Assembly: GCA_001244265.2 (NCBI GenBank)
Contig: CDLV01000006.1
Span: 558,001-622,000, forward strand
Source of the DNA: Microbotryum violaceum
Taxonomy: Eukaryota
Length of the DNA: 64,000 nt
Direction: 5' to 3'
Shown here: positions 12,547 to 31,162 of the stretch, piece after piece
Position numbering within the stretch: position 1 is the first letter of the stretch
Layout: the number at the start of each line of letters is the position of its first letter
Notes under the pieces: model-generated
Told to the model about the DNA's origin: nothing
The model's database searches: none
What the model saw: the letters and a program-made list of their open reading frames with translations, nothing else
Made by a program: the position numbers and the translations under genes

Positions 12547-14248
<1,702 letters not shown>

Positions 14249-14579
14249 CCTTGATGTTGATGTCGTGTGTTTGCGCGTCGTGGCCGGAAGGTAGACCGGG
14301 TCTAGTCGCGAGTGCCAAGGTGGGGGACGAAAACGGTTTTATTAGATGACCAAGATACATAGCTAGATCGAGGCCTATTCTTCTCTGAAAAATCGGAGGA
14401 GGTGCATTTTTAAAAAACAAGTCGGCAACAATTGATCATTAGCTCGACCGCTACGTCATGGGCTACGAAAAAAAAACCCCCTAGACCGGCTGACCCGCGA
14501 GACGTCTACCCTGCACTCGACAGGCGGCACGCTCCTGAGGAGGTACTGAATCCGGTAAAGGCGCCATAACGGAAAAAAC

Positions 14580-16382
14580 ATGACATCTGGTGGTGGTAGC
14601 AACTCGACGCCGACGGTACCCCTTCCCGCGCCGATGCGCTCCGACACCTCGAGCTGCACTCCTCGCAGCGCCATGAGCACCACGCTTACCCCAGGTTCAG
14701 CGCAAGGCGATGATGTATCAACGACGAACACAATAAGAACAGTGGAAGAAGCCCAAGGAACGAGCGCCTCCGAGCCAGGCACGGTACAGCAAGAGCTTCC
14801 TCCGCAGGATCGTGGATGGCGAGCGTGGCGCTTCGTACTCGCGAGTTGCTTGCTCGACCTCTTTGTCAGTTCTGGGCAAACGTCATCGCAGGAGGGGGTC
14901 CAATCGGTTGCTAATTATCCTACGCCCCTACAGATCTGGGGTGGCACCTTCGCGTACGGCACTTGGCTCGAATACTACCTCTCGCACCCTCCCTTCCAGA
15001 ACGAATCGCCCGTCTCGCTCGGTGCCGTCGGAACGGTCGCGCTCGCGCTCAACTACGCCGAGATGCTCATCGGTATCATCCTCTGCGGCAAATACCCGCA
15101 CCATATTCGCAAAGGAATGTGGGCTTGCCTCGTCGTGTACAGCGGGAGCTTGCTCATTGCAAGTTTTGCTCGGCAGGTTAGTAACTTCGGCTCCTATTGG
15201 CTTTGTTTCCCAGGTGACAGGGGCTGATCCGACATATCCTACGGCAGCTGTGGACGTTGATGCTCTTTCAGGGCGTGCTGGCCGGTAGCGCTGGCGGGTT
15301 GTTGTACGCTCCAATCTATGTATGGCTTTCGCAATGGTTTCAAGCTCGAAGGGCACTGGCAGGAGGAACCATCTTTGCGGGAGCAGGCGTCGGAGGGTGA
15401 GCAGATTCTTCCCTTCCCTCGTTGCTTCCTCCCATGCTTCGATCTAACCTCCTGCAACGCTTGCGACACCCCTAGATTTGCCTTCCCCTTGATTCTCAAC
15501 GCACTTCTTCCTCCCTTGGGTTTCCGATGGACCCTTCGCCTTTTCGCATTGATCACCCTCATTATCTGCGGTCTCTCCGTCCATCTCCTCCAACCGCGTC
15601 TACCAAGCGTCCGACCCCCACCCAAATGTCTCCCCTCCTCATCGCTGGCCCCCAATCAACTACAGGCCCGTCAAGACCATGCTTCGGCCTCCGAAATCTC
15701 CTTCTCGATCCTCTACGACCCTTCCTTCCTCCTCGTATCCGGCACCGTCCTCACACAAGGAATGATGTTTTCCCCCATCCTAACTTACCTTCCGACCTAT
15801 CTCACCTCGTTCGAATCACCAACTCTGGCATCGCTCACTCTCGCACTTTTGAACGCGGCTACGATCCCGGGATTGATCATGACGGGTCATTTATGCGATC
15901 GATACCCTTATACTTGGGTTCAAGCCGTATCGACCCTCCTAGCGACGCTCTCGATTTTCCTCCTCCTTCGAATGGGGGATACTTTCTCGAAAACGCTTAT
16001 TTTCGCACTCTTGATCGGCGTCAGTGCAGGAGGTTTTGCTTCGACGTGGTTCCCTTCCTCCATCGACGTCGCGACCTGTACGGGAAGGAAGAAGGATGCG
16101 TCCCAATCGGCGGTCGTGTTTGGGTATCTTGCGATCGTCAGAGGTGTGGCGTCCATCGTGGGACCCGTTATCGCGGGTTCGGCCTATAAACCGACTAGGG
16201 TGGAAGGGGGGGAGAGGATGGGTAAGTTTGGATTGGGGAGCTTTGTGGTGCTGAGTGGGACTTTGGGTGTGGTTGCGTTGGGTTTTGTGTTGGGGAATGA
16301 GTTGTATAGGAGGTGGAGGAGGGGGTTAAGCATGAGAAGGGAGGCAGAGGGGGATGGGAAAGAGTTGAAGGAGTTCAAGTAG
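14580..16382 (+). CDS. MFS transporter, monocarboxylate porter (MCT/Mch) family
   Basis: LPPQDRGWRAWRFV, WGGTFAYGTWLEYY, QWFQARRALAGGTIFAGAGVGG (spliced), LGFRWTLR, GHLCDRY; many hydrophobic helices; 3 introns. Confidence 0.88.
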
Positions 16383-16562: not shown

Positions 16563-17589
16563 TCACAGCCTCGACCCACCACGACTCCCCTTCCCCTTCC
16601 GATCCAGCATCTCAATTTCCTCCCCCCCACCATGGGGTGATCTCTCCCCCTTGGTCTTATGACCCGCCCTCCTCTCCTTCCCGACGCCCTGGATATACAA
16701 CCTCCAAAACACCCTCCACAACCCTCTCACCAACCCCAAAGGAGGAATCCACCAATTCAACCTCCAACTCCAGCCTGCCCGTGCATCCAACTTTTTGATC
16801 ACTCTTTCGACTTGGGGCGTTAAATCGGCGAGAGGACCGGAATTGTCGAGCACGTAGTCGGCGTAAAGGAGTTTTTTGGACAGGGCCAACTGGGAGGAGA
16901 GGCGTGAACGGGCTTGGTCCGAGGTGAGCGAATTGCGCGATTGGAGACGTTGCAATTGGAGCGATTCGGAGCTGTGGAGTTTTTCGAAGAGGGGAGCTCA
17001 TGAGGTGTTTTGTCGAAGGGAGGGAGCACTTGAAACGAAGTTCCAACGAAAATCTTTGCGCCTCGCGCCCTCTCTATGAACCCTTCCGCGACAAGTATCT
17101 CATCTTGCCCGGTCCTTTGCAAAACAACTCACCAATACACCACCACAATCGCCCCACAAAACTTCCACAACCCCGCCTCTATCAACAACGGAGCATCGAC
17201 GACGACGACCTTCTGACCCTTCAACCAATGTCCGACCAACTTCTTGACCAACAACTTTCGAATAGCGGGATGGAGGATCCCATTGAGGACTTTACGTTCT
17301 TTTTCGTTACCAAAGACGATCGAACCTAGTTTATCGCGGTCGAGGGTTCGGTCGGGGAGAAGGATTTGGGGACCGAAGTGGAAGACGAGGGAGGAGAGGG
17401 AGGAGGTGCCGGGGAGGACTACTTCACGCGCTAGCACGTCCAGGTCGATCAGGGGCAGCGAATGCGATTTGAGGATTGAGGATACAGTCGATTTGCCTGG
17501 TGAGTGAGAGGGGACGGGAGCGTTAGTTGGAGAAGAGACGGTCGGGTGACTCGAGTGGAGCGCCGGATGACGATGACGATGACGATGAT

Positions 17590-17624
<35 letters not shown>

Positions 17625-17772
17625 TGATGATGATGGCGACGATATCGACATGCCGATGGTCCGTGAGTGACGTACCCGAGGCAATCCCACCCGTTAGACC
17701 AACGACTATCGAGATGGGAGTGGGAATCAGTACCAGTTGACTACGTCTCTCTGTAGGGGACTGACCAAGCAT
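16563..17772 (-). CDS. CAB5: Dephospho-CoA kinase (CoaE/Cab5)
   Basis: Spliced MLVVGLTGGIASGKSTVS (P-loop), IDLDVLAREVV, LDRDKLGSIVF, ILHPAIR, VVVDAPLLIE, ADYVLDNSG. Confidence 0.93.
17566..17640 (+). repeat. (GATGAC/GAT)n microsatellite in a CAB5 intron
   Basis: Read directly; lies between the GTACGT donor and CAG acceptor of the minus-strand gene. Confidence 0.85.
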
Positions 17773-18120: not shown

Positions 18121-21100
18121 TTAATTCGACCGGTCACGAACGATCAAAGCTGTTGATTGTGCTCGGCCCGTAATGGCGGACCTCTTGGTGACTGAAAGGG
18201 ACGTTCTGGTCGAAGTCGACTTGGAGGTCGAAGTAGAACTCTTCGAAGCTGAGGAGGTCGTACTGCTCACGACGGGCGCGGTGCCGCTAAGAAGCATGGG
18301 TCGAATAAGGTCAGTGACCCATGTTTTTGTGTATATCTTGCTTTTTTTTTCCCTTTTTTATTATTACGAGAACTCACCAAGCCACTCGATCGATGCACAC
18401 CGCTCCGTTCGCAGCCGCGGCGTTCGAAGCGCATGTACCCAGGACCGTATGCGCGAAATTGATCGTTGTCGTCAAGCCGACGAGAGCTCCGGTCGACTTG
18501 AGGTAACACATGCGGGTATCGAAGGCAAATTCAAAGTAGGTTGCTCTGGGGGTTGAAAGCGTGCGCGTGAGGCAGGCGTTGTAGTCCGTAGAGACGGCGC
18601 GAGACTAAAGAAGTGTGTTTTTCGGAAGGATCGGTTAGCTACAGAACACTCGGACGGATTTCAATTGGCCGAGGAGAACACCTCACAAGTTCAGCCGACC
18701 TGGTTCCAGTACCTTGCCAACTGGGGTAGACAGACCATGCCGTCGTACCCGTTCCCGTTGCACAGACCGGCGACGAAGTTTGCCACATTGCGCACGACGC
18801 ATTTTTGGCTGGTGAGAATTGCAAAGGGGAGTGCGGATGAGTAAATCAATGCACGAGGGTTAAAGTTCTTCTTCCCATAATTTTCGTGACATACTGGCAG
18901 TAGCGTAGACCGTGCAATTCGTCGCCGGGACGAACAGGTTCCACATCTTGCCATTCGTCACAGGGGTGAAGCTGCCAAAGGCGTTCGTTTGGGTATACAG
19001 CGAGCAGATCTTGGTACTGTATCAACAGGCAGCAATGTTGAAGCATCAGTAACCGCCTTGTTTGATTTTGTCTCGACCAGCTCGGTAGCGGTCTTGACTT
19101 ACGCTTGCGTGTAGGTAAAGTAAGTGCAGGCCAGAAAAGTGTCGCACTTGTAGCTACACGCGTCGTAGGTGGTCGCCGATGACTGTAAGGAACAGAAAGA
19201 TGAAGTCAGCACTTTGATTGCTCTTGAGTCGATGATCGAGCTCCGCTTCGAAGAATAAGAAAAGACAGGGGCTCAAACGATCCAAGACTCACGTTCGAAG
19301 CACCACTCGGGACGGAAGCGACCATGTACGCGGCGTAAGTGCGCATCGCACGCGAGCTGTTAGCAGCCGTACCACCGACAGCGACCGTGGTCGGGCTAGG
19401 AAGTACGCTACTCCTTGAAGTCGTAGAGGAGGAGGTGACTTTGCCCGATGCCGTGGCGGAGCTGCGTGGCGTAGTCGACGCGGCGGTGGCGGAAAGAGAG
19501 ACAGTAGACCTAGTAGAGGATATAGTTGCAGAAGGGGCGAGGGAGACCGTTGAACGCGTCGAGCTCGTCGTGCTCGAGCGACTCGCGGTCGTAGACTTGG
19601 TCGTCAAGCTCGAGGGAGTCGTTGTCGGGTTGCTCGCCACGACCTGAGGTGCGCCATTGGGCAATGACTCGACCTGCGCCGTGCCACTCTTCTGGGGACT
19701 CGTCGTCGTCGTTGATTCCGAGACGTAGTAGATTTGCCATTCGCTCAAACCGATGTTGCTCGTCGTCGAACTGACGCCAGTGACGGTGAAGACGACGGTC
19801 GTTGTTGTCTTTGTCGAAAAGTTGATCGTCGTAGCTGTACCGGCGTTCACCAGAGTCGGGACGGCGACAACCGAGCCATCGGAGAATGTGACCGTACCGG
19901 CCGTAACTTGGTCGTTCAAGTTGGGTCGGTCGTACATGACGAAACGGTTCATTGTAATCGGCGATGACCAGGTGATGGTCAAAGTGGCGCCAACACCTTG
20001 TCCGTTCGAAGCCCACTGCGAAAGCCCAGAATCTGGTTGGTTATGGCGCTTGATCATACTTCAGCAAGGCTAGACGTACCTCTTGTGTATAATCTCCACC
20101 GCTCGTTGTGTATCCACCTATAAGACCGTCGCAAGCCTTCTCGGCACCCTGACCTGGGCCATTAGACGAGCTGGTCGCAGTGCCCAACATCGCAAGATCG
20201 GTATTCGGTGTGGGACTAGCAGCAGCAGCTGAGCCCGTCGTCGTCGTTGTGCTCGCACTGTAGTGAGAATGGGACAAAAGCCGAGAGTGAGTAAGAGCAT
20301 GCAACAGCATCCACGTCAGAGACTCTTCCAGATCACTCACGTAGGTAGGACATAGTAGATCTGCCACTCGCTCAATCCAATGTTAGAGGTCGTCGAACTC
20401 GTACTCGTGACCGTAAGGGTGACACTCGTCGTGGCACGGCCAGTAAAGCTAACGGGTGTAGCCGTTCCGGCATTCGCGAGAGCGGGGATCGAGACCGTGG
20501 ATCCGTCGGAGAAGGTGACAGATCCACCGGTGATCTGATCGTTCAGATTCGGTCGATCGTACAAGACGAATTGGTTGATGAAGATGGGCGACGACCAGGT
20601 GATGGTGAGGAAGGCTCCGACGCCTTGGCTGATCGTTGACCACTGGTGTGACAAATTTGCAAAGCGTCAGTTAGAAGAACTCCTACACGGCGAGGAAGTG
20701 GAACTCACCTCAGCGGAAGAGTTGCCTTGACCATTCTCCGTGTAGCCACCGATGATGCCGTCCTTTGCCCGCTCGGGCCCTTGCCCGGCAGCACCAGTCG
20801 AAGCGGTAGCGGCACCCACGAGTGCGATATCAACGCCGGGAGAAGGTGTCGAGACAGGAACCGGCGCGGCCGTCGGGGTCTTGGACCTGTTTGTCATGAT
20901 TGCAGCCGCGTGTCTGAGTGTCAGCTCACTATAGTGAAATTTGAGAATAAGAAGAATCGCAAGCTTACATAGATGTGCTGGTCGTCGTTGCAGTTCCGGT
21001 TGCGGGTGCGGATGTAATTGTGATTGTGATTGCGGTTGCGATTGTGGTTGCCGGGGCCGTGGCCGTTGTTGTGGCCGTTGTTGTGGACGTTGTCGTGGCC

Positions 21101-23630
21101 GTGGTCGTTGCCGCCGCAGTCACCAAGTACATCTGCCATTCCATCAAACCAATGTTGGAAGTCATCGAAGAGACCTTGGTTACTCGGAGCGTGACCTTGG
21201 TCGTCGTCTTTTGCGCAAAGTTGACCGTCAAACCCGCGCCATTGTTGGGCAAACTCGGGATCGTCACGACGCTGCCATTGCTGAAGGTCGCAGTCGCGCC
21301 AGTGATCTGATCGTTCATATTGGGTCGGTCGTAGAGGATGAAGCGGTTCATCGTTTGCGCTGAGCTGAAGTTGATGGTCAACGTCGCTCCGACGCCTTGG
21401 TGATCCGAACTCCACTCGGCAGCTTCGTTGCCTGTTCCATTCTCGAGGTAACCGCTCAAAATACCGTCGATGGCGGCGGAGGCCGGTTGACCATCCGCAG
21501 TGGTCGAGGACGTAGCTGTACCCAATTGTGCCAAATTAGGTCCAAGTGCACCAGTAGGGGTCGAGGCTGCGGAGGTGGTCGTCTTGGAAGGCGTTGGCGT
21601 TGTGGTGGTCACTGTCGAGAGCACGCAGCGTGGGCACGCCACACCCCAGGCCTGCAGCTCGGACAAGCCGACGTTCGAAGTCGAGGCCGAGACTTTGGTC
21701 ACGGTCAAGAGCAACGTGTTGGTCACGATCGATTGATTGAAGTTGACGATGAGTCCCGTTCCTTCGTTGAGCGGGTTCACGAAAGAGATAGCTCGTCCGT
21801 CGGAGAAGGTTAACTTTCCTGCCTGCAGCCAATCGTCTAAGTTCGGTCTATCGTACAGGATGACACCGGTGAGGTTTTGCAGCGTCGACCAAGTCAGCTT
21901 GGCCCAGCTACCCACACCGCCATGATTGGTAGCCCTGTTGGGGGTGGCAAAGGACCGAAGGGTTAGTCTGCGCATGCGCCCATGAAACAAGAACGTCCTT
22001 ACCATTCTGCTGTTTCATTGGCCGGGTAGCCAGAAATGACACCATCGTTCAAACCCGCCGCGCTGGTCCCACTTTCCACACTCGACACGCTTGGCACGGC
22101 CGTCAAAGCGACGTTAGTGCCCGCAGGCAATCGCTTCGGAGGCGTCTGGGCGCTCGAAGACGTCGTGGCAAGCGCCGGAGTGACGGCGTACTGGCGTTGC
22201 AACCAGTACACCTCGCCTCGTCCGGCGGCCTGGCAGTCGGACAACGAGTGGCATTCGTTGACATCGTAGGGCGTGTATGCGAAGAAGGCAGCGCACTTGG
22301 CCTTGTACTCGCTGGAGGTGGTCGATAAAGTCGGAGGGAGGTTCGACACCGGGTAGCCCATGTAACCCGCGAACGTCGGTGATCCAAGTGTGTACGCGCT
22401 GACGGCTTCTCGCGTAATTCGGCCTGTAGCGATATGATCGGCGTGATCTCCACCATCGAACTAATGGTGTGTCATGAGAAGCGGTCAGAGTATTCTCATC
22501 CTCTTCATATACCCGCTTTAGCCCCTGGGAGGACTCACGGCGGACAAATGATCCAAAGTTCTCACGACGGTCGGTTGACGAGCATTCAGGATCTCCACCA
22601 AAGCATTCTGCAGATCATTATAGGTGTAGTACGCATTCATGGACACAGTGTTGATCGTGCCGATCGTGCCAAAGTACAAGTCGCGTAATGACTCCGATCT
22701 GCAGGAAAGACTCCGAAGGTGGGTGTTAATTTGGGGAGTTGATTCGGCGGCAAAGACTTGGCGTGCGCCATGCTCACCCGGTTACAGAGTACCCGGATCC
22801 ATCAATATTGCCGTCCGGTAATCGGAACCAGAGCTTTTGCACACCTGGGGCTCCGATGAGAGTGCGCACGAGCACCGGCTGTCCACCGAAAGTGGCGAAG
22901 AATCTGAAGAACCAATCGCCGACACCAAGTCAGCTTCTCGGTACCCAAGGTCGGGATAGGCTCATGAGTTTCGCTGAGACGTGCTCTGTGTAATTGTTGG
23001 CTACACTCATCATCTGTGCATACGCGGCTTCACTACCGCCTTCTCGACTTTGAGCATAGTCGCTTCCCGATCCAGAGTCGCCGGATCTGATAGATCACGA
23101 AACAGGAATATCAGTCCTAGGCACAAACTACCGGTTTGTTTTGACTGTGCTCACGTCAGGTAGATGGAAGTATGGCATGCATTGCTCGCGAGATCGCTTT
23201 GCAAAGCCGGGCCGGCGAACAAAAGGTCGTCGTCGGGATGGGCGACGATATCTGCAGTTCACAGGGAACGAGGGTCAGCGACAGACCATGCGGGTAGAAA
23301 CTGGTGACAGGGTGGCGGTGTACTCACAGATTGCACCACTGTTACAGGTCCGAGCGGAACGGGATGCACGAAGAACGAAGTGTATGTCAGTCGCCAGAGA
23401 AAGAACCCCAAGTCCACACGCGCGAGACCGTGCCTTTGCCCCGGCCCTGTCGCCGGCCGCACCTGTACGCTCGCAGTTACGCGATCAGGGCCCCTTTCGA
23501 GCCTGATGACTCACCCAAGGCAGTTAAAGACGCCCGCGGCTGTGGTGTAGCGAATCAGGGACAGCAGCAAAATCAAGTACATCCCAAACTTCATGTCCTT
23601 GCGGCCTGAGCTGTGCCGAGGCCAAAGCAT
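18121..23630 (-). CDS. Secreted multidomain protein: PIG-L/LmbE (CE14)-type Zn deacetylase, 4 galactose-binding-like beta-sandwich repeats, S/T linkers and PAN/apple-like Cys modules
   Basis: Signal peptide MKFGMYLILLLSLIRYTTAA; spliced IVAHPDDDLLF...IYLTSGDSG..YAQSREGGSEAAYAQM...WFRLPDG...DHADH; four repeats with DG.I.GY..EW...LYDRPN.ND...NIGLSEWQ; C-terminal TYDACSYKCDTFLACTYFTY. Start is either 23630 or 23594. Confidence 0.85.
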
Positions 23631-29034: not shown

Positions 29035-31162
29035 TCAACCCGTCTTTTGCTTCTTCTTTGCCGGCTTCTTGGCCTCTTCCTCCGATTCTTCCCCGCCATC
29101 ATCCGAATCCATCTCACTCCCCGAATCGTCCGAAGTAGCACTCCCGCCATCCGAATCATCCGATTCGACCGTAAAGTCCTCATCCGGTGAATCCTCATCC
29201 TCATCGTCGTCGTCGGCCCCACCATTATTCTTGACAGTCTTCATCTTGACGTCCCCATCCTCATCATCCTCCCCTTCATCCTCCTCATCCGAATCGTCGG
29301 CTCCAAGAACGGCGGCTTCGACCGCGGCGATTTCGTCCATCTCGTTCTTGATTTTGATCTTCTTCATTCTCAAAAAGTCCTCGATCGGTTGCAACTCTTC
29401 CTTGTTCAAAGCGGCGAATACGATCGGATGGTCAGGGTCGCCTCGTAGACGAATCGAGAGATCAAAGGTTCGAGCTGAGGGTAATGCCCCCCCGACTCGA
29501 GCAAAGATGACGGCGGAGATATCGGCGTGAGGGACCTGAGTAGGTTGTTTGGAGATGAACAACAACTGCTTCTCTAAAAGGTACAACAACCCCTCGTTCG
29601 CTTTGAGGTTACACTTGACGGCTTGTTGTCCATCATGGGATTGGAACGATCCAGGAGTCGTCACCTTTTTCTGCGCCATGACCCGGAACAAGACCGAGAC
29701 GACTTCGTAGGCCGGATCGTCGTAGTGCAGTTTGAGGTTACCGTCGTATTTGTCGTTGATGGTCTCTTCGTCGAGGTTGAGGTCCAACTCGAGTTGTTCT
29801 TCCTTGATGAACTGCATGACGAGGTAAGGGTATCTCGTTTGACCTTGTCGGATCGGGGGATCGATGTTAACGATGAATTGACAATGGATGTCGTCCGGTT
29901 TAGGCAAGAGGAACAATTTTTGGATCTGCGTGTACGCGATACGATAGTCGTACGTCTTGCCTCGCAAGCGAAGGAACTCGGCGTGCATGTCGAGATCGAA
30001 TCGTCCGCGGGGGGTGAGGCATAAAGCTTCGGGGATCGTGCAGAAGCTTTCACCGGTGATCTTGCCAATATCGGCTTTCTCCTTGACCGCGTCGTGGAAA
30101 GCTTGAGCGGCCGTGGCTTCTTCCCCGTTCTCATCCTCGTCACCATCTTCATCGTCGTCGTCTTCATCTTCGTCGTCAGATCGGTTCTTGCCATCCTTCG
30201 CTCCTTTGGCCTTGACCTTGTCCGTCTTTTTCTTCATACCTTTAGCCGAACCGGGTAGGTAGAACCTCATCTCCGCCACCTCATCCGGCATGGCCTTTAG
30301 CCTCTTCTTGCGAGTGACGGCATCCTCATTCTCCTCTTGACCCGGCTTGGGAGCCAAGGCCGAGGTGAACTCGAGTGCGACTTCGGCCTTGTTGATAGAG
30401 GTGTTGTTGACTTGGGCCAAGGGGAGCGTGAAGGCTTGCTTTCCCGCGACGAGGAAGGCCATGTCTTGGGCTGTGTAGTGAAGAGAACGGTCAGCGATCA
30501 ATGGTATGCATGGACCGCACAACTTGCTTGGAACGCTCACCTTGGATCTCGGCAACCCCCCAATTCCATCCTCTGACACTGGTATCCATCGTTTCGATCG
30601 TAGTGTTGTAGTACTGCAATCATTCCACCGTTTATCGGGATCCGATCAGCCCTCGATCAGAGTTGGTTCGTTCAGGAAGCGATGGAGCGGCCATTTTACC
30701 TGCTTGCACAAGTTGCCCAACCTCTCAAAGTCGTCCTTGAGGAACCCATCGAACGTGATGCGGTTCTTGGGGGTACCGATCCTCAGCTGGAAATTCCTGG
30801 CGACCCTGTACGGTGTGAAAAAACCAGACCGCATCAGCAAACCCAGCTCTGCAGCTGAGGGGTTACGAGACCCGTCCCACCCCCGCTCCTCCTGAGGCTG
30901 AGGGAGGGCGTCCTCCTCCTCCTCCTGCCGCTTACCTGATCCATTGGAGCCACTTGATATCACTCGAAGGTACGGTAATCACACTCTCTTGTTCATCCGA
31001 CGATTTCCATCCCAGACCACTGGGTGCGATCCTCAGTTCTGCACGCGGTGAGACGCGTCAGTTCAGCTTTTGGCTCATGCTCTTCGGACCACGGAGTTCT
31101 GACATACTGCCCGGTGTCGGTCCCAAACCGTGAAAGATGGACTCGAATTGCGCGGTCGACAT
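29035..31162 (-). CDS. POB3: FACT complex subunit POB3/SSRP1
   Basis: MSTAQFESIFHGL.., VARNFQLRI..FDGF, AEMRFYLPG, LTPRGRFDLDM, LRLRGKTYDYRI, DPPIRQGQTRYPYLV, VKCNLKANEGLLYLL; acidic tail with basic end. Confidence 0.96.

What the first reader, a model, noticed from the sequence alone, without database searches (positions are those of the whole stretch)
18121..23630. Secreted modular LmbE/PIG-L-type deacetylase with four putative carbohydrate-binding repeats and PAN-like modules
Seen: the catalytic domain is absent from the ORF track because it is split over tiny exons; splicing restores both Zn-binding motifs (AHPDD near 23230-23250 and HADH near 22433-22445). It is followed by four ~140-aa beta-sandwich repeats, S/T-rich linkers and Cys modules. 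Established: eukaryotic PIG-L/Gpi12 is an ER enzyme of GPI synthesis without such modules. Inference: the DDDLLF, RE.G..AAYAQM and FRLPDG pattern resembles bacterial LmbE-like proteins more than Gpi12. This may be an extracellular GlcNAc/chito-oligomer de-N-acetylase (wall remodelling or chitin masking) unrelated to CE4 chitin deacetylases, possibly of bacterial origin.
Basis: partly seen in the sequence, partly recalled or inferred. Interest (0 to 1): 0.75.

Follow-up and report, generated by a model that had tools for sequence, protein, structure and literature searches.

The report
Secreted bacterial-type deacetylase, anther-smut fungus
A gene of the anther-smut fungus Microbotryum encodes a secreted enzyme built like bacterial cell-surface sugar deacetylases, with four sugar-binding modules; it is not the GPI-anchor enzyme its database name suggests, and its substrate is still unknown.

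Summary
Window 23630..18121 (minus strand) is the annotated gene MVLG_01294 of Microbotryum lychnidis-dioicae. It has 17 exons, one of only 11 nt, and one GC-AG intron, and encodes 1377 aa. The parts, in order:
- a signal peptide;
- a 270-aa LmbE/PIG-L-fold catalytic domain with AHPDD and HADH intact;
- four DUF7402 repeats with a CBM32-like fold;
- Ser/Thr-rich linkers;
- a Cys-rich end whose first module passes Pfam PAN_1.

The catalytic domain belongs to a large, uncharacterised, mainly bacterial family of 1965 representative clusters. Its members are mostly Actinomycetota and Saccharibacteria proteins with secretion leaders. They often carry the same PIG-L+DUF7402 architecture and often lie beside glycosyltransferase or flippase genes.

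Fungal members are patchy: Microbotryomycetes, three ascomycetes, a chytrid, and a separate Aspergillus group. The ML tree nests the fungal clade among Actinomycetota, but an AU test does not reject the alternative (p = 0.14).

Published RNA-seq shows 16- to 34-fold induction on nutrient-free agar and low expression late in planta.

Best reading: an extracellular zinc-dependent glycan de-N-acetylase, not Gpi12. Substrate and origin remain inferences.

The parts
18121..23630 (-). CDS of MVLG_01294: 17 exons, 1377 codons plus stop
   Evidence: P0001 maps exactly. Exons: 23630-23515, 23338-23328, 23251-23155, 23086-22985, 22903-22778, 22698-22539, 22460-22003, 21934-20969, 20886-20709, 20642-20341, 20257-20080, 20015-19293, 19182-19103, 19016-18895, 18808-18687, 18604-18378, 18286-18121.
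23535..23594 (-). Signal peptide (M13-A32, MKFGMYLILLLSLIRYTTAA). The annotated start is 12 codons upstream, at 23630.
   Evidence: Read from the sequence; SigP4_Yes in Perlin 2015 supplementary file 15.
23328..23338 (-). 11-nt micro-exon 2 between two GTGAGT donors
   Evidence: It is needed to keep the frame into IVAHPDDD.
22167..23534 (-). Catalytic domain, residues 33-302 (LmbE/PIG-L fold), with introns 1-6
   Evidence: Pfam PIG-L 53.2 bits. AF2 pLDDT 96.8. Foldseek hits are all LmbE-family enzymes.
23229..23243 (-). AHPDD motif: H47 and D50 predicted Zn ligands, D49 predicted general base
   Evidence: H47, D49 and D50 are each present in 246 of 247 family members. The roles are assigned by analogy with MshB (recalled).
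22434..22445 (-). HADH motif: H210, and H213 as predicted third Zn ligand
   Evidence: H210 is present in 242 of 247 and H213 in 247 of 247.
22904..22984 (-). Intron 4, the only GC-AG intron (donor GCACGT)
   Evidence: This splice keeps the conserved FGGQ stretch that aligns with fungal and bacterial homologues.
21646..22115 (-). DUF7402 repeat 1 (residues 320-453), split by intron 7 after EW
21127..21537 (-). DUF7402 repeat 2 (residues 490-626), with no intron
   Evidence: AF2 pLDDT 92. CBM32-like fold.
20355..20831 (-). DUF7402 repeat 3 (residues 698-834), split by intron 9 after EW
19728..20199 (-). DUF7402 repeat 4 (residues 859-994), split by intron 11 after EW
19296..19727 (-). Long Ser/Thr-rich linker (residues 995-1138, 47% S+T). 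Shorter S/T linkers lie between the repeats.
18899..19295 (-). Cys module 1, PAN/apple-like (residues 1139-1205)
   Evidence: PAN_1 24.2 bits against cut-off 21.4, in 3 of 3 orthologues, covering profile positions 23-64 of 76. ESM Atlas neighbours are PAN clusters, score 0.90.
18280..18898 (-). Cys module 2 (residues 1206-1325), family unassigned
   Evidence: No Pfam match. Found only in the three Microbotryum orthologues among 194 proteins held at that point.
18124..18279 (-). Ser/Thr-rich C-terminal tail (residues 1326-1377) with no hydrophobic end
   Evidence: No GPI-anchor-like tail is seen (reading of the sequence).

Best explanation
MVLG_01294 encodes a secreted, probably wall- or matrix-associated, zinc-dependent glycan de-N-acetylase.

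Catalytic domain. The N-terminal 270-aa domain has the LmbE/PIG-L fold. By analogy with MshB, H47, D50 and H213 would hold the zinc, D49 would activate the water, and H210 would stabilise the transition state. The enzyme would remove the acetyl group from a terminal or exposed N-acetylhexosamine residue.

Accessory parts. Four CBM32-like DUF7402 modules on mucin-like Ser/Thr linkers, plus a PAN-like Cys-rich end, would hold the enzyme on an extracellular glycan.

Family. It belongs to a distinct, uncharacterised family that is mainly bacterial. There the proteins carry secretion leaders and often sit in surface-polysaccharide gene clusters. The likely common job is therefore de-N-acetylation of a HexNAc-bearing surface or extracellular polymer after export.

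Role in Microbotryum. The gene is switched on by starvation. This fits wall remodelling before mating, or scavenging, better than a late-infection role.

Status of each step.
- Shown: gene model, domains, folds, conserved catalytic residues, family distribution, expression.
- Inferred: metal, chemistry, substrate, location in the wall, biological role.
For: - Gene and splicing.
- Motifs: H47, D49 and D50 are present in 246 of 247 aligned family members, H210 in 242 of 247, D212 and H213 in 247 of 247.
- Catalytic model: pLDDT 96.8. All listed Foldseek PDB hits with E<=3e-4 are LmbE-superfamily entries: BshB, BC1534, MshB, diacetylchitobiose deacetylase, LnmX, TT1542, GalB and the teicoplanin deacetylases. 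In total 41 hits have E<=1e-3.
- Repeat model: pLDDT 92. Top hits are CBM32 modules with TM 0.65-0.77. The chitosan-binding modules 4zy9, 4zz5 and 4zxe have the highest identity, 21-24%.
- Secretion in the fungus: SigP4_Yes.
- Secretion in bacteria: 15 of 15 bacterial N-termini that could be inspected show a basic plus hydrophobic leader; for a 16th protein, L047, the script did not locate the motif. The Cys pair C274/C280 is present together in 202 of 247 members, absent together in 32, and discordant in 13.
- Family size: 1965 representative clusters at E<=1e-3 and 493 at E<=1e-30. At least 582 stretches were found in bacterial genomes.
- Shared architecture: 30 of 69 scanned bacterial host ORFs have PIG-L plus 1-5 DUF7402.
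- Bacterial neighbours: 8 of 13 loci have GT2, GT4 or WecG genes within about 5.5 kb. Three have Wzx-type flippases and four have GH16 genes.
- Expression: nutrient-free agar 361.75, rich medium 22.97, late infection 10.54. Log2 fold change is 4.04 (FDR 6e-13) and 5.16 (FDR 1e-18). The paralogue MVLG_01176 is co-induced.
Against: - No enzyme of this family has been assayed, as far as my searches show.
- Similarity to assayed LmbE enzymes is remote: TM about 0.5, 12-18% identity, sequence E about 0.05. The superfamily also holds amidases and a hydratase (GalB), so the chemistry is not fixed by the fold.
- CBM32-like folds bind many different sugars, so they do not name the substrate.
- 5 of the 13 bacterial loci have no glycosyltransferase nearby. 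The 13 loci come from only 10 genera, and some share synteny.
- The fungal gene's own neighbours are housekeeping genes and say nothing about function.
- A deep-learning study predicted K+, not a sugar, for DUF7402.
Confidence: 0.6

Rival explanations
1. It is the fungus's Gpi12/PIG-L, the ER enzyme that de-N-acetylates GlcNAc-PI in GPI-anchor synthesis. UniRef's automatic name ('N-acetylglucosaminylphosphatidylinositol deacetylase') implies this.
For: A Pfam PIG-L match and the UniRef name.
Against: - It has a signal peptide, four CBM32-like modules and mucin-like linkers, and is 1377 aa long.
- Its close relatives are secreted bacterial proteins.
- The genome holds a separate short PIG-L gene, MVLG_04145 (1618 nt), that is absent from the differential-expression table.
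- It is induced 16-fold by starvation.
Confidence: 0.02
2. It uses the same fold for a different reaction. The zinc site would hydrolyse another amide or ester, or hydrate a substrate, as Mca amidase and GalB hydratase do within this superfamily. It would then not be a HexNAc de-N-acetylase.
For: GalB and antibiotic-tailoring deacetylases are among the fold matches. The family has its own invariant residues outside the metal site, namely R89, K259, Y266, D270 and R293, present in 228-244 of 247 members. These have no assigned role.
Against: - Carbohydrate-binding modules are attached in fungi and bacteria alike.
- Polysaccharide-synthesis genes are neighbours in bacteria.
- Most assayed LmbE enzymes act on GlcNAc-type amides (recalled knowledge).
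Confidence: 0.15
3. It is an infection effector that converts chitin fragments or wall chitin to chitosan, hiding the fungus from the plant's chitin receptors.
For: It is secreted and has a deacetylase fold. Some of the closest structural neighbours of the repeat are chitosan-binding modules. The organism is a biotroph.
Against: - Expression is lowest in the infected-flower sample (10.54) and highest on nutrient-free agar (361.75).
- Free-living red yeasts (Rhodotorula, Sporobolomyces, Leucosporidium) have the family, some with several copies.
- Only late infection was sampled, so an early role is not excluded.
Confidence: 0.1
4. It is a non-catalytic adhesin or lectin whose enzyme domain is a relic.
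For: Binding modules and linkers make up about 75% of the protein.
Against: All metal and catalytic residues are intact and near-invariant across the family. The catalytic domain is the most conserved part between fungi and bacteria.
Confidence: 0.05

Closest known systems
Bacterial 'PIG-L family deacetylase / DUF7402 domain-containing protein' (Actinomycetota such as Curtobacterium, Nakamurella, Geodermatophilaceae and Microbacterium; also Saccharibacteria)
   Same: The 265-aa catalytic domain aligns end to end at 35-48% identity. The same PIG-L plus tandem DUF7402 architecture is seen in 30 of 69 scanned ORFs. The DUF7402 repeats are 38-49% identical. The bacterial proteins have N-terminal secretion leaders.
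   Different: The fungal gene has 16 spliceosomal introns, Ser/Thr mucin-like linkers and a genus-specific PAN-like Cys-rich end. The bacterial proteins instead add PKD, PA14, CHB_HEX_C_1 with FG-GAP, RTX or membrane regions. No member has a tested function.
Assayed LmbE-fold enzymes: MshB, BshB, BC1534, archaeal diacetylchitobiose deacetylase, teicoplanin deacetylases (CAZy CE14, by recall)
   Same: The fold and the AHPDD...HxxH metal site.
   Different: Identity is only 12-18% and TM about 0.5. Those enzymes are cytoplasmic single-domain proteins acting on small glycosides. This one is secreted, has a distinct C-terminal subdomain with its own invariant residues and a covarying Cys pair, and carries CBMs.
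Gpi12 / PIG-L (GlcNAc-PI de-N-acetylase of GPI synthesis)
   Same: The Pfam family PF02585.
   Different: Gpi12 is a short ER-membrane protein without CBMs (recalled). Here the protein has a signal peptide, is 1377 aa long, has bacterial-type relatives and is induced by starvation. A separate candidate, MVLG_04145, exists.
Extracellular polysaccharide de-N-acetylases of other folds: CE4 chitin deacetylases, PgaB/IcaB, and Agd3 (CE18) (recalled)
   Same: The proposed logic is the same: a metal-dependent enzyme, sometimes with a CBM, that de-N-acetylates a HexNAc polymer after export.
   Different: The fold is unrelated. No NodB or CE4 domain is found in the protein. Microbotryum has 8 CE4 genes of its own, according to the CAZy table of Perlin 2015.
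CBM32 modules (NanJ 2v72, AlyQ, chitosan-binding DD1/DD2 4zy9/4zz5, GH84C)
   Same: The beta-sandwich fold, TM 0.65-0.77. Pfam F5_F8_type_C is above its cut-off.
   Different: There is no significant sequence match to any solved chain. DUF7402 has its own invariant DRPN...D...FSDG and EW motifs. Its ligand is unknown.

Membership tests
LmbE/PIG-L superfamily (Pfam PF02585) | Pfam PIG-L match above the gathering score | tested here: met
   53.2 bits against 28.2, residues 43-224.
LmbE/PIG-L superfamily (Pfam PF02585) | Rossmann-like alpha/beta fold of LmbE enzymes | tested here: met
   AF2 pLDDT 96.8. All listed Foldseek hits with E<=3e-4 are LmbE-family structures, though TM is only about 0.5.
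LmbE/PIG-L superfamily (Pfam PF02585) | Metal site AHPDD plus HxxH (His, Asp, His ligands; Asp base) | tested here: met
   A46-H47-P48-D49-D50 and H210-A211-D212-H213. These are near-invariant in 247 relatives.
LmbE/PIG-L superfamily (Pfam PF02585) | Zinc-dependent de-N-acetylase activity | not testable with these tools
   Needs an enzyme assay.
Gpi12 / PIG-L sensu stricto | Short single-domain ER-membrane protein with no secretion signal or CBMs | tested here: not met
   1377 aa, a signal peptide, 4 DUF7402 and PAN_1.
Gpi12 / PIG-L sensu stricto | Orthology to Gpi12 (nesting within the Gpi12 clade) | tested here: inconclusive
   No Gpi12 sequence was available to place in a tree. Indirectly, the nearest relatives are bacterial secreted proteins, and a separate short PIG-L gene, MVLG_04145, exists.
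Bacterial-type PIG-L + DUF7402 secreted family | Full-length match to the 265-aa catalytic domain, including the C-terminal subdomain (K259, Y266, D270, R293) | tested here: met
   Matches span query residues about 5-265 at E 1e-42 to 1e-55. Invariant columns are given.
Bacterial-type PIG-L + DUF7402 secreted family | DUF7402 repeat(s) C-terminal to the catalytic domain | tested here: met
   Four repeats, 611 bits. The same order is seen in 30 of 69 bacterial ORFs.
CBM32 / F5_F8 type C (discoidin) modules | Beta-sandwich fold and Pfam F5_F8_type_C match | tested here: met
   53.5 bits against 28.2. Foldseek TM 0.65-0.77 to CBM32 structures.
CBM32 / F5_F8 type C (discoidin) modules | Carbohydrate binding | not testable with these tools
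   Needs a glycan array or ITC.
PAN/apple domain | Pfam PAN_1 above the gathering score, covering the Cys core | tested here: inconclusive
   24.2 bits against 21.4 when the C-terminal part is scanned alone (3 of 3 orthologues), but 19.7 bits in the whole protein. Only profile positions 23-64 of 76 are covered, and only the first module matches. The ESM Atlas lead scores 0.90. No structure model was made.
CE4 (NodB) chitin/polysaccharide deacetylases | NodB homology domain | tested here: not met
   No Polysacc_deac_1 or other NodB match among the 4 families found in P0001 at E<=0.01.

The most novel reading that the evidence does not exclude
The family would be a third, structurally unrelated class of extracellular polysaccharide de-N-acetylases, beside CE4 and CE18. 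It would use an LmbE-fold zinc site tethered by CBM32-like DUF7402 modules to turn HexNAc residues of exported surface polymers into cationic amino sugars. Fungi would have obtained it from Actinomycetota-like bacteria as a complete catalytic-plus-DUF7402 gene. Microbotryomycetes then multiplied the repeats. Microbotryum would use it, together with the paralogue MVLG_01176, to remodel its wall or matrix when starved, before mating.
Probability: 0.3. Interest if true: 0.75.

Novelty: new variant of a known kind. Interest (0 to 1): 0.5.

Why it matters
- It corrects an automatic name: this is not the GPI enzyme.
- It points to an untested enzyme family with about 2000 representative clusters in bacteria and scattered fungi. 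The family may modify cell-surface amino-sugar polymers by a fold not yet linked to that job.
- The published CAZyme analysis of this fungus did not count the gene: its table has no CE14 column, and CBM32 is 0 for Microbotryum.
- The gene is one of the strongly starvation-induced secreted proteins of a model plant-castrating fungus.
- It is a candidate case of transfer of a whole multi-domain gene between bacteria and fungi.
- All of these points can be tested with ordinary expression, assay and knock-out work.

Tried and rejected
Names came instead. Some clade members (P0038, P0045, P0066) remain unnamed.
- treekit's AU test on the 85-row set did not finish in four runs. A first IQ-TREE run timed out. 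A smaller 50-row test finished and did not reject 'all ingroup bacteria form one clade' (delta lnL 12.8, p-AU 0.142). P0066 was counted as bacterial in that constraint, although its sequence looks eukaryotic to me.
- phmmer of a DUF7402 repeat against PDB sequences found nothing meaningful (best E 0.69).
- My automated count of secretion leaders gave 87 of 126. It undercounts: L002, L003, L012, L038, L011, P0050 and P0051, which it scored negative, show clear leaders on inspection.
- Literature searches:
  - 'MVLG_01294': 0 papers.
  - 'DUF7402': 1 paper, a metal-site predictor.
  - 'Microbotryum' + 'PIG-L': 0 papers.
  - CE14 / secreted / Pucciniomycotina: nothing on this gene among the 20 listed of 726.
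  - 'GlcNAc-PI de-N-acetylase' + 'secretome': 3 papers. I read passages of one, on Frankia, and could not tie its protein to this family.
  - LmbE + horizontal gene transfer + fungi + deacetylase: 1 paper, unrelated judging by its title and abstract start.
- A Gpi12 sequence for a direct tree could not be obtained.
- No structure model of the PAN-like region was made; both prediction jobs went to the catalytic domain and the repeat.

Full report
WHAT IS THERE

The window comes from Microbotryum lychnidis-dioicae p1A1 Lamole. A search with one exon returned the annotated protein MVLG_01294 at 100% identity (P0001, 1377 aa, 'hypothetical protein'; UniRef name 'N-acetylglucosaminylphosphatidylinositol deacetylase').

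P0001 maps letter for letter to the minus strand from 23630 to 18121. The gene has 17 exons and 16 introns of 64-176 nt: 15 GT-AG and one GC-AG.

The first seven exons are 116, 11, 97, 102, 126, 160 and 458 nt. This is why the catalytic domain shows no long ORF. AHPDD is at 23243-23229 and HADH at 22445-22434.

The genome paper states that the gene models were built and updated with strand-specific RNA-seq through PASA and EVM (passages of PMC4469406). Its supplementary file 2 lists the locus as 5994 nt, longer than the 5510-nt CDS span. I therefore infer that the model, including the 11-nt exon, rests on transcripts. I did not see the reads.

The GC-AG splice keeps the stretch FGGQ, which aligns with fungal and bacterial homologues. 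The M. saponariae model (P0002) reads differently at this point and loses that stretch.

DOMAINS

Pfam on the spliced protein gives four families:
- PIG-L: 53.2 bits (cut-off 28.2), residues 43-224.
- DUF7402: 611 bits, four stretches.
- F5_F8_type_C: 53.5 bits.
- PAN_1: 19.7 bits, below its cut-off of 21.4.

No NodB/CE4 domain is found. Scanned alone, the C-terminal part gives PAN_1 24.2 bits (E 3e-5) in 3 of 3 Microbotryum orthologues. This covers only the first Cys module and only profile positions 23-64 of 76. The ESM Atlas also puts PAN clusters first, with score 0.90 and a low number of shared features, so it is a lead only.

Among the 194 proteins held at that point, the Cys-rich end occurs only in the three Microbotryum orthologues.

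The repeats are residues 320-453, 490-626, 698-834 and 859-994. Repeat 1 is 41% identical to the others; repeats 2-4 are 58-65% identical to each other. The linkers are 41-51% Ser+Thr. The C-terminus is not hydrophobic, so I see no GPI-anchor signal (reading of the sequence).

A signal peptide (MKFGMYLILLLSLIRYTTAA) follows the second ATG. The genome paper's supplementary file 15 marks the gene 'SigP4_Yes'.

FOLDS

The catalytic domain, modelled with a 29-row alignment, has pLDDT 96.8 and pTM 0.94. Against the PDB, 41 matches have E<=1e-3. All listed matches with E<=3e-4 are LmbE-superfamily entries:
- BshB and BC1534;
- MshB;
- Pyrococcus diacetylchitobiose deacetylases;
- LnmX and TT1542;
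- GalB;
- the teicoplanin and A40926 deacetylases.

TM is only 0.45-0.52 and identity 12-18%. By sequence, MshB is reached at E 0.045 with the single sequence. With a profile, LnmX is reached at 1.6e-4 and MshB at 3e-4. The domain is therefore a remote branch of the fold, not a close relative of any assayed enzyme.

Repeat 2, modelled with 27 bacterial DUF7402 sequences (38-49% identity), has pLDDT 92. It matches CBM32 modules at TM 0.65-0.77: NanJ, AlyQ, GH84C, lectinolysin and the galactose oxidase N-terminal domain. The chitosan-binding modules of a Paenibacillus chitosanase show the highest identity in the list, 21-24%. This is a lead to the ligand, not a test.

THE FAMILY

A full HMMER scan of 1.84 billion representatives with the 270-aa domain found 1965 clusters at E<=1e-3, 1321 at E<=1e-10 and 493 at E<=1e-30. 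Matches cover the whole domain at 35-48% identity.

By their record titles, the best 80 are mostly Actinomycetota (Curtobacterium, Frigoribacterium, Nakamurella, Klenkia, Paenarthrobacter, Microbacterium, Actinoplanes) and Saccharibacteria or other Patescibacteria. A few are Rhodobacterales.

I scanned the host ORFs of 69 of the 80 loci. The other 11 ran off their locus or fell beyond the residue cap. Of the 69, 30 have PIG-L followed by 1-5 DUF7402, the fungal architecture. Others add PKD, PA14, CHB_HEX_C_1 with FG-GAP, RTX repeats, or a long N-terminal region with a GtrA-type membrane domain.

In 247 aligned domains the key residues are conserved as follows:
- H47, D49 and D50 in 246.
- H210 in 242.
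- D212 and H213 in 247.
- The family-specific R89, K259, Y266, D270 and R293 in 228-244.
- The Cys pair 274/280 occurs together in 202, is absent together in 32, and is discordant in 13.

All 15 actinobacterial N-termini that I could inspect have an Arg-rich, hydrophobic leader just before the domain; for a 16th protein, L047, my script did not find the motif. An automated count gave 87 of 126, but it misses obvious cases.

I also scanned 83 of 98 candidate neighbour ORFs from 13 loci. Eight loci have GT2, GT4 or WecG glycosyltransferases within about 5.5 kb (L002, L003, L012, L015, L036, L016, L076, L038). Three have Wzx-type flippases and four have GH16 genes. Two loci (L042, L011) have nothing of the kind. 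The 13 loci represent 10 genera and some share synteny, so the independent count is about 6 of 10.

FUNGI AND ORIGIN

Named fungal relatives fall into three groups:
- Many Microbotryomycetes: Microbotryum, Sporobolomyces, Leucosporidium, Rhodotorula, Rhodosporidiobolus and Meredithblackwellia. Several species have more than one copy.
- Single-domain proteins of three ascomycetes (Trichodelitschia bisporula, Lepidopterella palustris, a Trichoglossum hirsutum MAG) and a chytrid (Zopfochytrium polystomum).
- A separate group of about 275-aa Aspergillus proteins.

The trees gave the following.
- FastTree, 247 rows (27 of 274 hits with under 80% profile coverage left out). The Microbotryomycetes, two of the ascomycetes, the chytrid and unnamed rows form a 31-row clade with support 99.
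- IQ-TREE (LG+C20), 85 rows, rooted on seven distant PIG-L proteins. The clade of 21 sampled rows has SH-aLRT 97 and the Microbotryomycetes within it 85. The base of the ingroup is unresolved. Aspergillus similis lies elsewhere, inside a 43-row bacterial clade.
- ML tree, 50 rows. The fungal clade is nested among Actinomycetota, next to P0066 and Geodermatophilaceae. Forcing all ingroup bacteria into one clade costs only 12.8 lnL, with p-AU 0.142. Nesting is therefore the best estimate, not an established result.

P0066 and P0045 are unnamed records with eukaryote-like leaders and N-glycosylation sequons. Both carry DUF7402 repeats, and P0045 closely resembles the chytrid protein. The two-part architecture is therefore probably old within the fungal clade.

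In a FastTree of 161 repeats, all 75 DUF7402 repeats from 18 Microbotryomycete proteins lie on one side of a branch (support 96) against 86 bacterial ones. Repeat 1 groups with the first repeats of other genera. Repeats 2-4 belong to a Microbotryum-only clade (support 99).

The window's neighbours are ordinary fungal genes: PI31, an MFS transporter, dephospho-CoA kinase and SSRP1/Pob3. The gene has 16 introns, so it is not contamination.

My reading is that transfer of a complete catalytic-plus-DUF7402 gene from bacteria into fungi is the most economical account of the distribution. The direction and the number of events are not shown.

NOT GPI12

The genome paper's supplementary file 2 lists three PIG-L genes:
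- this gene;
- a second long one, MVLG_01176 (7666 nt);
- a short one, MVLG_04145 (1618 nt).

The short gene is absent from the differential-expression table and is the likely true Gpi12 (inference). I could not place a Gpi12 sequence in a tree.

EXPRESSION

Supplementary file 15 of PMC4469406 gives, for MVLG_01294, late infection 10.54, nutrient-free agar 361.75 and rich medium 22.97. Log2 fold change is 5.16 (FDR 9.8e-19) for agar against infection and 4.04 (FDR 6.4e-13) for agar against rich medium. MVLG_01176 behaves alike, at 11.5, 94.5 and 14.67.

The gene is therefore transcribed and starvation-induced, and it is not a late-infection gene. Early infection and mating were not in that data set.

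HOW IT MOST LIKELY WORKS

By analogy with MshB (recalled: His13, Asp16 and His147 bind zinc, Asp15 is the base), H47, D50 and H213 would bind zinc and D49 would activate water. H210 would assist, and an acetamido group of a HexNAc residue would be hydrolysed.

The CBM32-like repeats and the PAN-like end would anchor the enzyme to a glycan outside the cell. The bacterial gene neighbourhoods suggest that the family's usual substrate is an exported surface polymer.

In Microbotryum the target could be its own wall chitin or another HexNAc glycan, or foreign material scavenged during starvation. None of this chemistry has been tested.

KNOWN OR NEW

Pfam already has DUF7402, and NCBI names the bacterial proteins 'PIG-L family deacetylase' or 'DUF7402 domain-containing protein'. 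The gene itself was annotated with Pfam PIG-L in 2015. The CAZyme table of that paper has no CE14 column and gives CBM32 = 0 for Microbotryum.

I found no paper on the gene or on the function of the family. Supplements of other papers were not searched.

I rate it a new variant of a known kind: an LmbE-fold deacetylase in an extracellular, CBM-tethered setting, shared by bacteria and a few fungal lineages.

Noticed in passing
window about 17520-17700: A trinucleotide-repeat tract reads as poly-His/Arg, poly-Asp or poly-Ser in the three frames. It lies in the same open frame as the dephospho-CoA kinase (CoaE) ORF at 17129-17740, just downstream of the gene.
   Followed up: no
not in the window (MVLG_01176, scaffold 6; MVLG_04145, scaffold 44; Perlin 2015 supplementary files 2 and 15): The genome has a second long PIG-L gene, MVLG_01176. 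It is co-induced on nutrient-free agar (94.5, against 14.67 on rich medium and 11.5 in late infection) and is marked SigP4_No. A short PIG-L gene, MVLG_04145, is probably the true Gpi12.
   Followed up: partly
window 22904-22984 (intron 4) and 19183-19292 (intron 12), compared with P0002: The M. saponariae orthologue model (P0002) reads 'QVSAKLMSLSRPW' where P0001 and P0003 splice with a GC donor. It also carries extra residues at the position of intron 12. These look like annotation differences rather than biology. M. intermedium (P0003) has 5 DUF7402 repeats against 4 here.
   Followed up: partly
window 22003/21934, 20709/20642 and 20080/20015 (exon junctions): Three of the four DUF7402 repeats are interrupted by an intron at the same place, right after the conserved Glu-Trp. 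The phase is 2 in repeat 1 and 0 in repeats 3 and 4. Repeat 2 has no intron.
   Followed up: no
L016, L031, L034, L043, L044, L064 and other Saccharibacteria/Patescibacteria loci: In these bacteria the deacetylase domain is the C-terminal end of an 850-1020-aa protein with an unassigned N-terminal region of about 600 aa. That region begins with a GtrA-type membrane domain in L034 and L064. A GT2 gene (L016) or a GtrA gene (L044) lies next door. This hints at a membrane-bound glycosylation-plus-deacetylation unit.
   Followed up: partly
P0177, P0209, P0212, P0267 (Aspergillus similis, A. heteromorphus, A. ellipticus, A. rambellii): This second fungal group of about 275-aa single-domain proteins does not join the main fungal clade. 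A. similis sits inside a bacterial clade, which suggests a separate acquisition.
   Followed up: partly
P0045 and P0066 (unnamed records): Two unnamed proteins have eukaryote-like signal peptides and N-glycosylation sequons. They carry the catalytic domain plus 2-4 DUF7402 repeats. P0045 closely resembles the chytrid protein, and P0066 is the nearest outgroup of the fungal clade.
   Followed up: partly
window 12616-14338, 15261-16382, 29035-30645: The neighbours are ordinary fungal genes: the PI31 proteasome regulator, an MFS transporter and the FACT subunit SSRP1/Pob3. There is no carbohydrate gene cluster around the deacetylase.
   Followed up: yes
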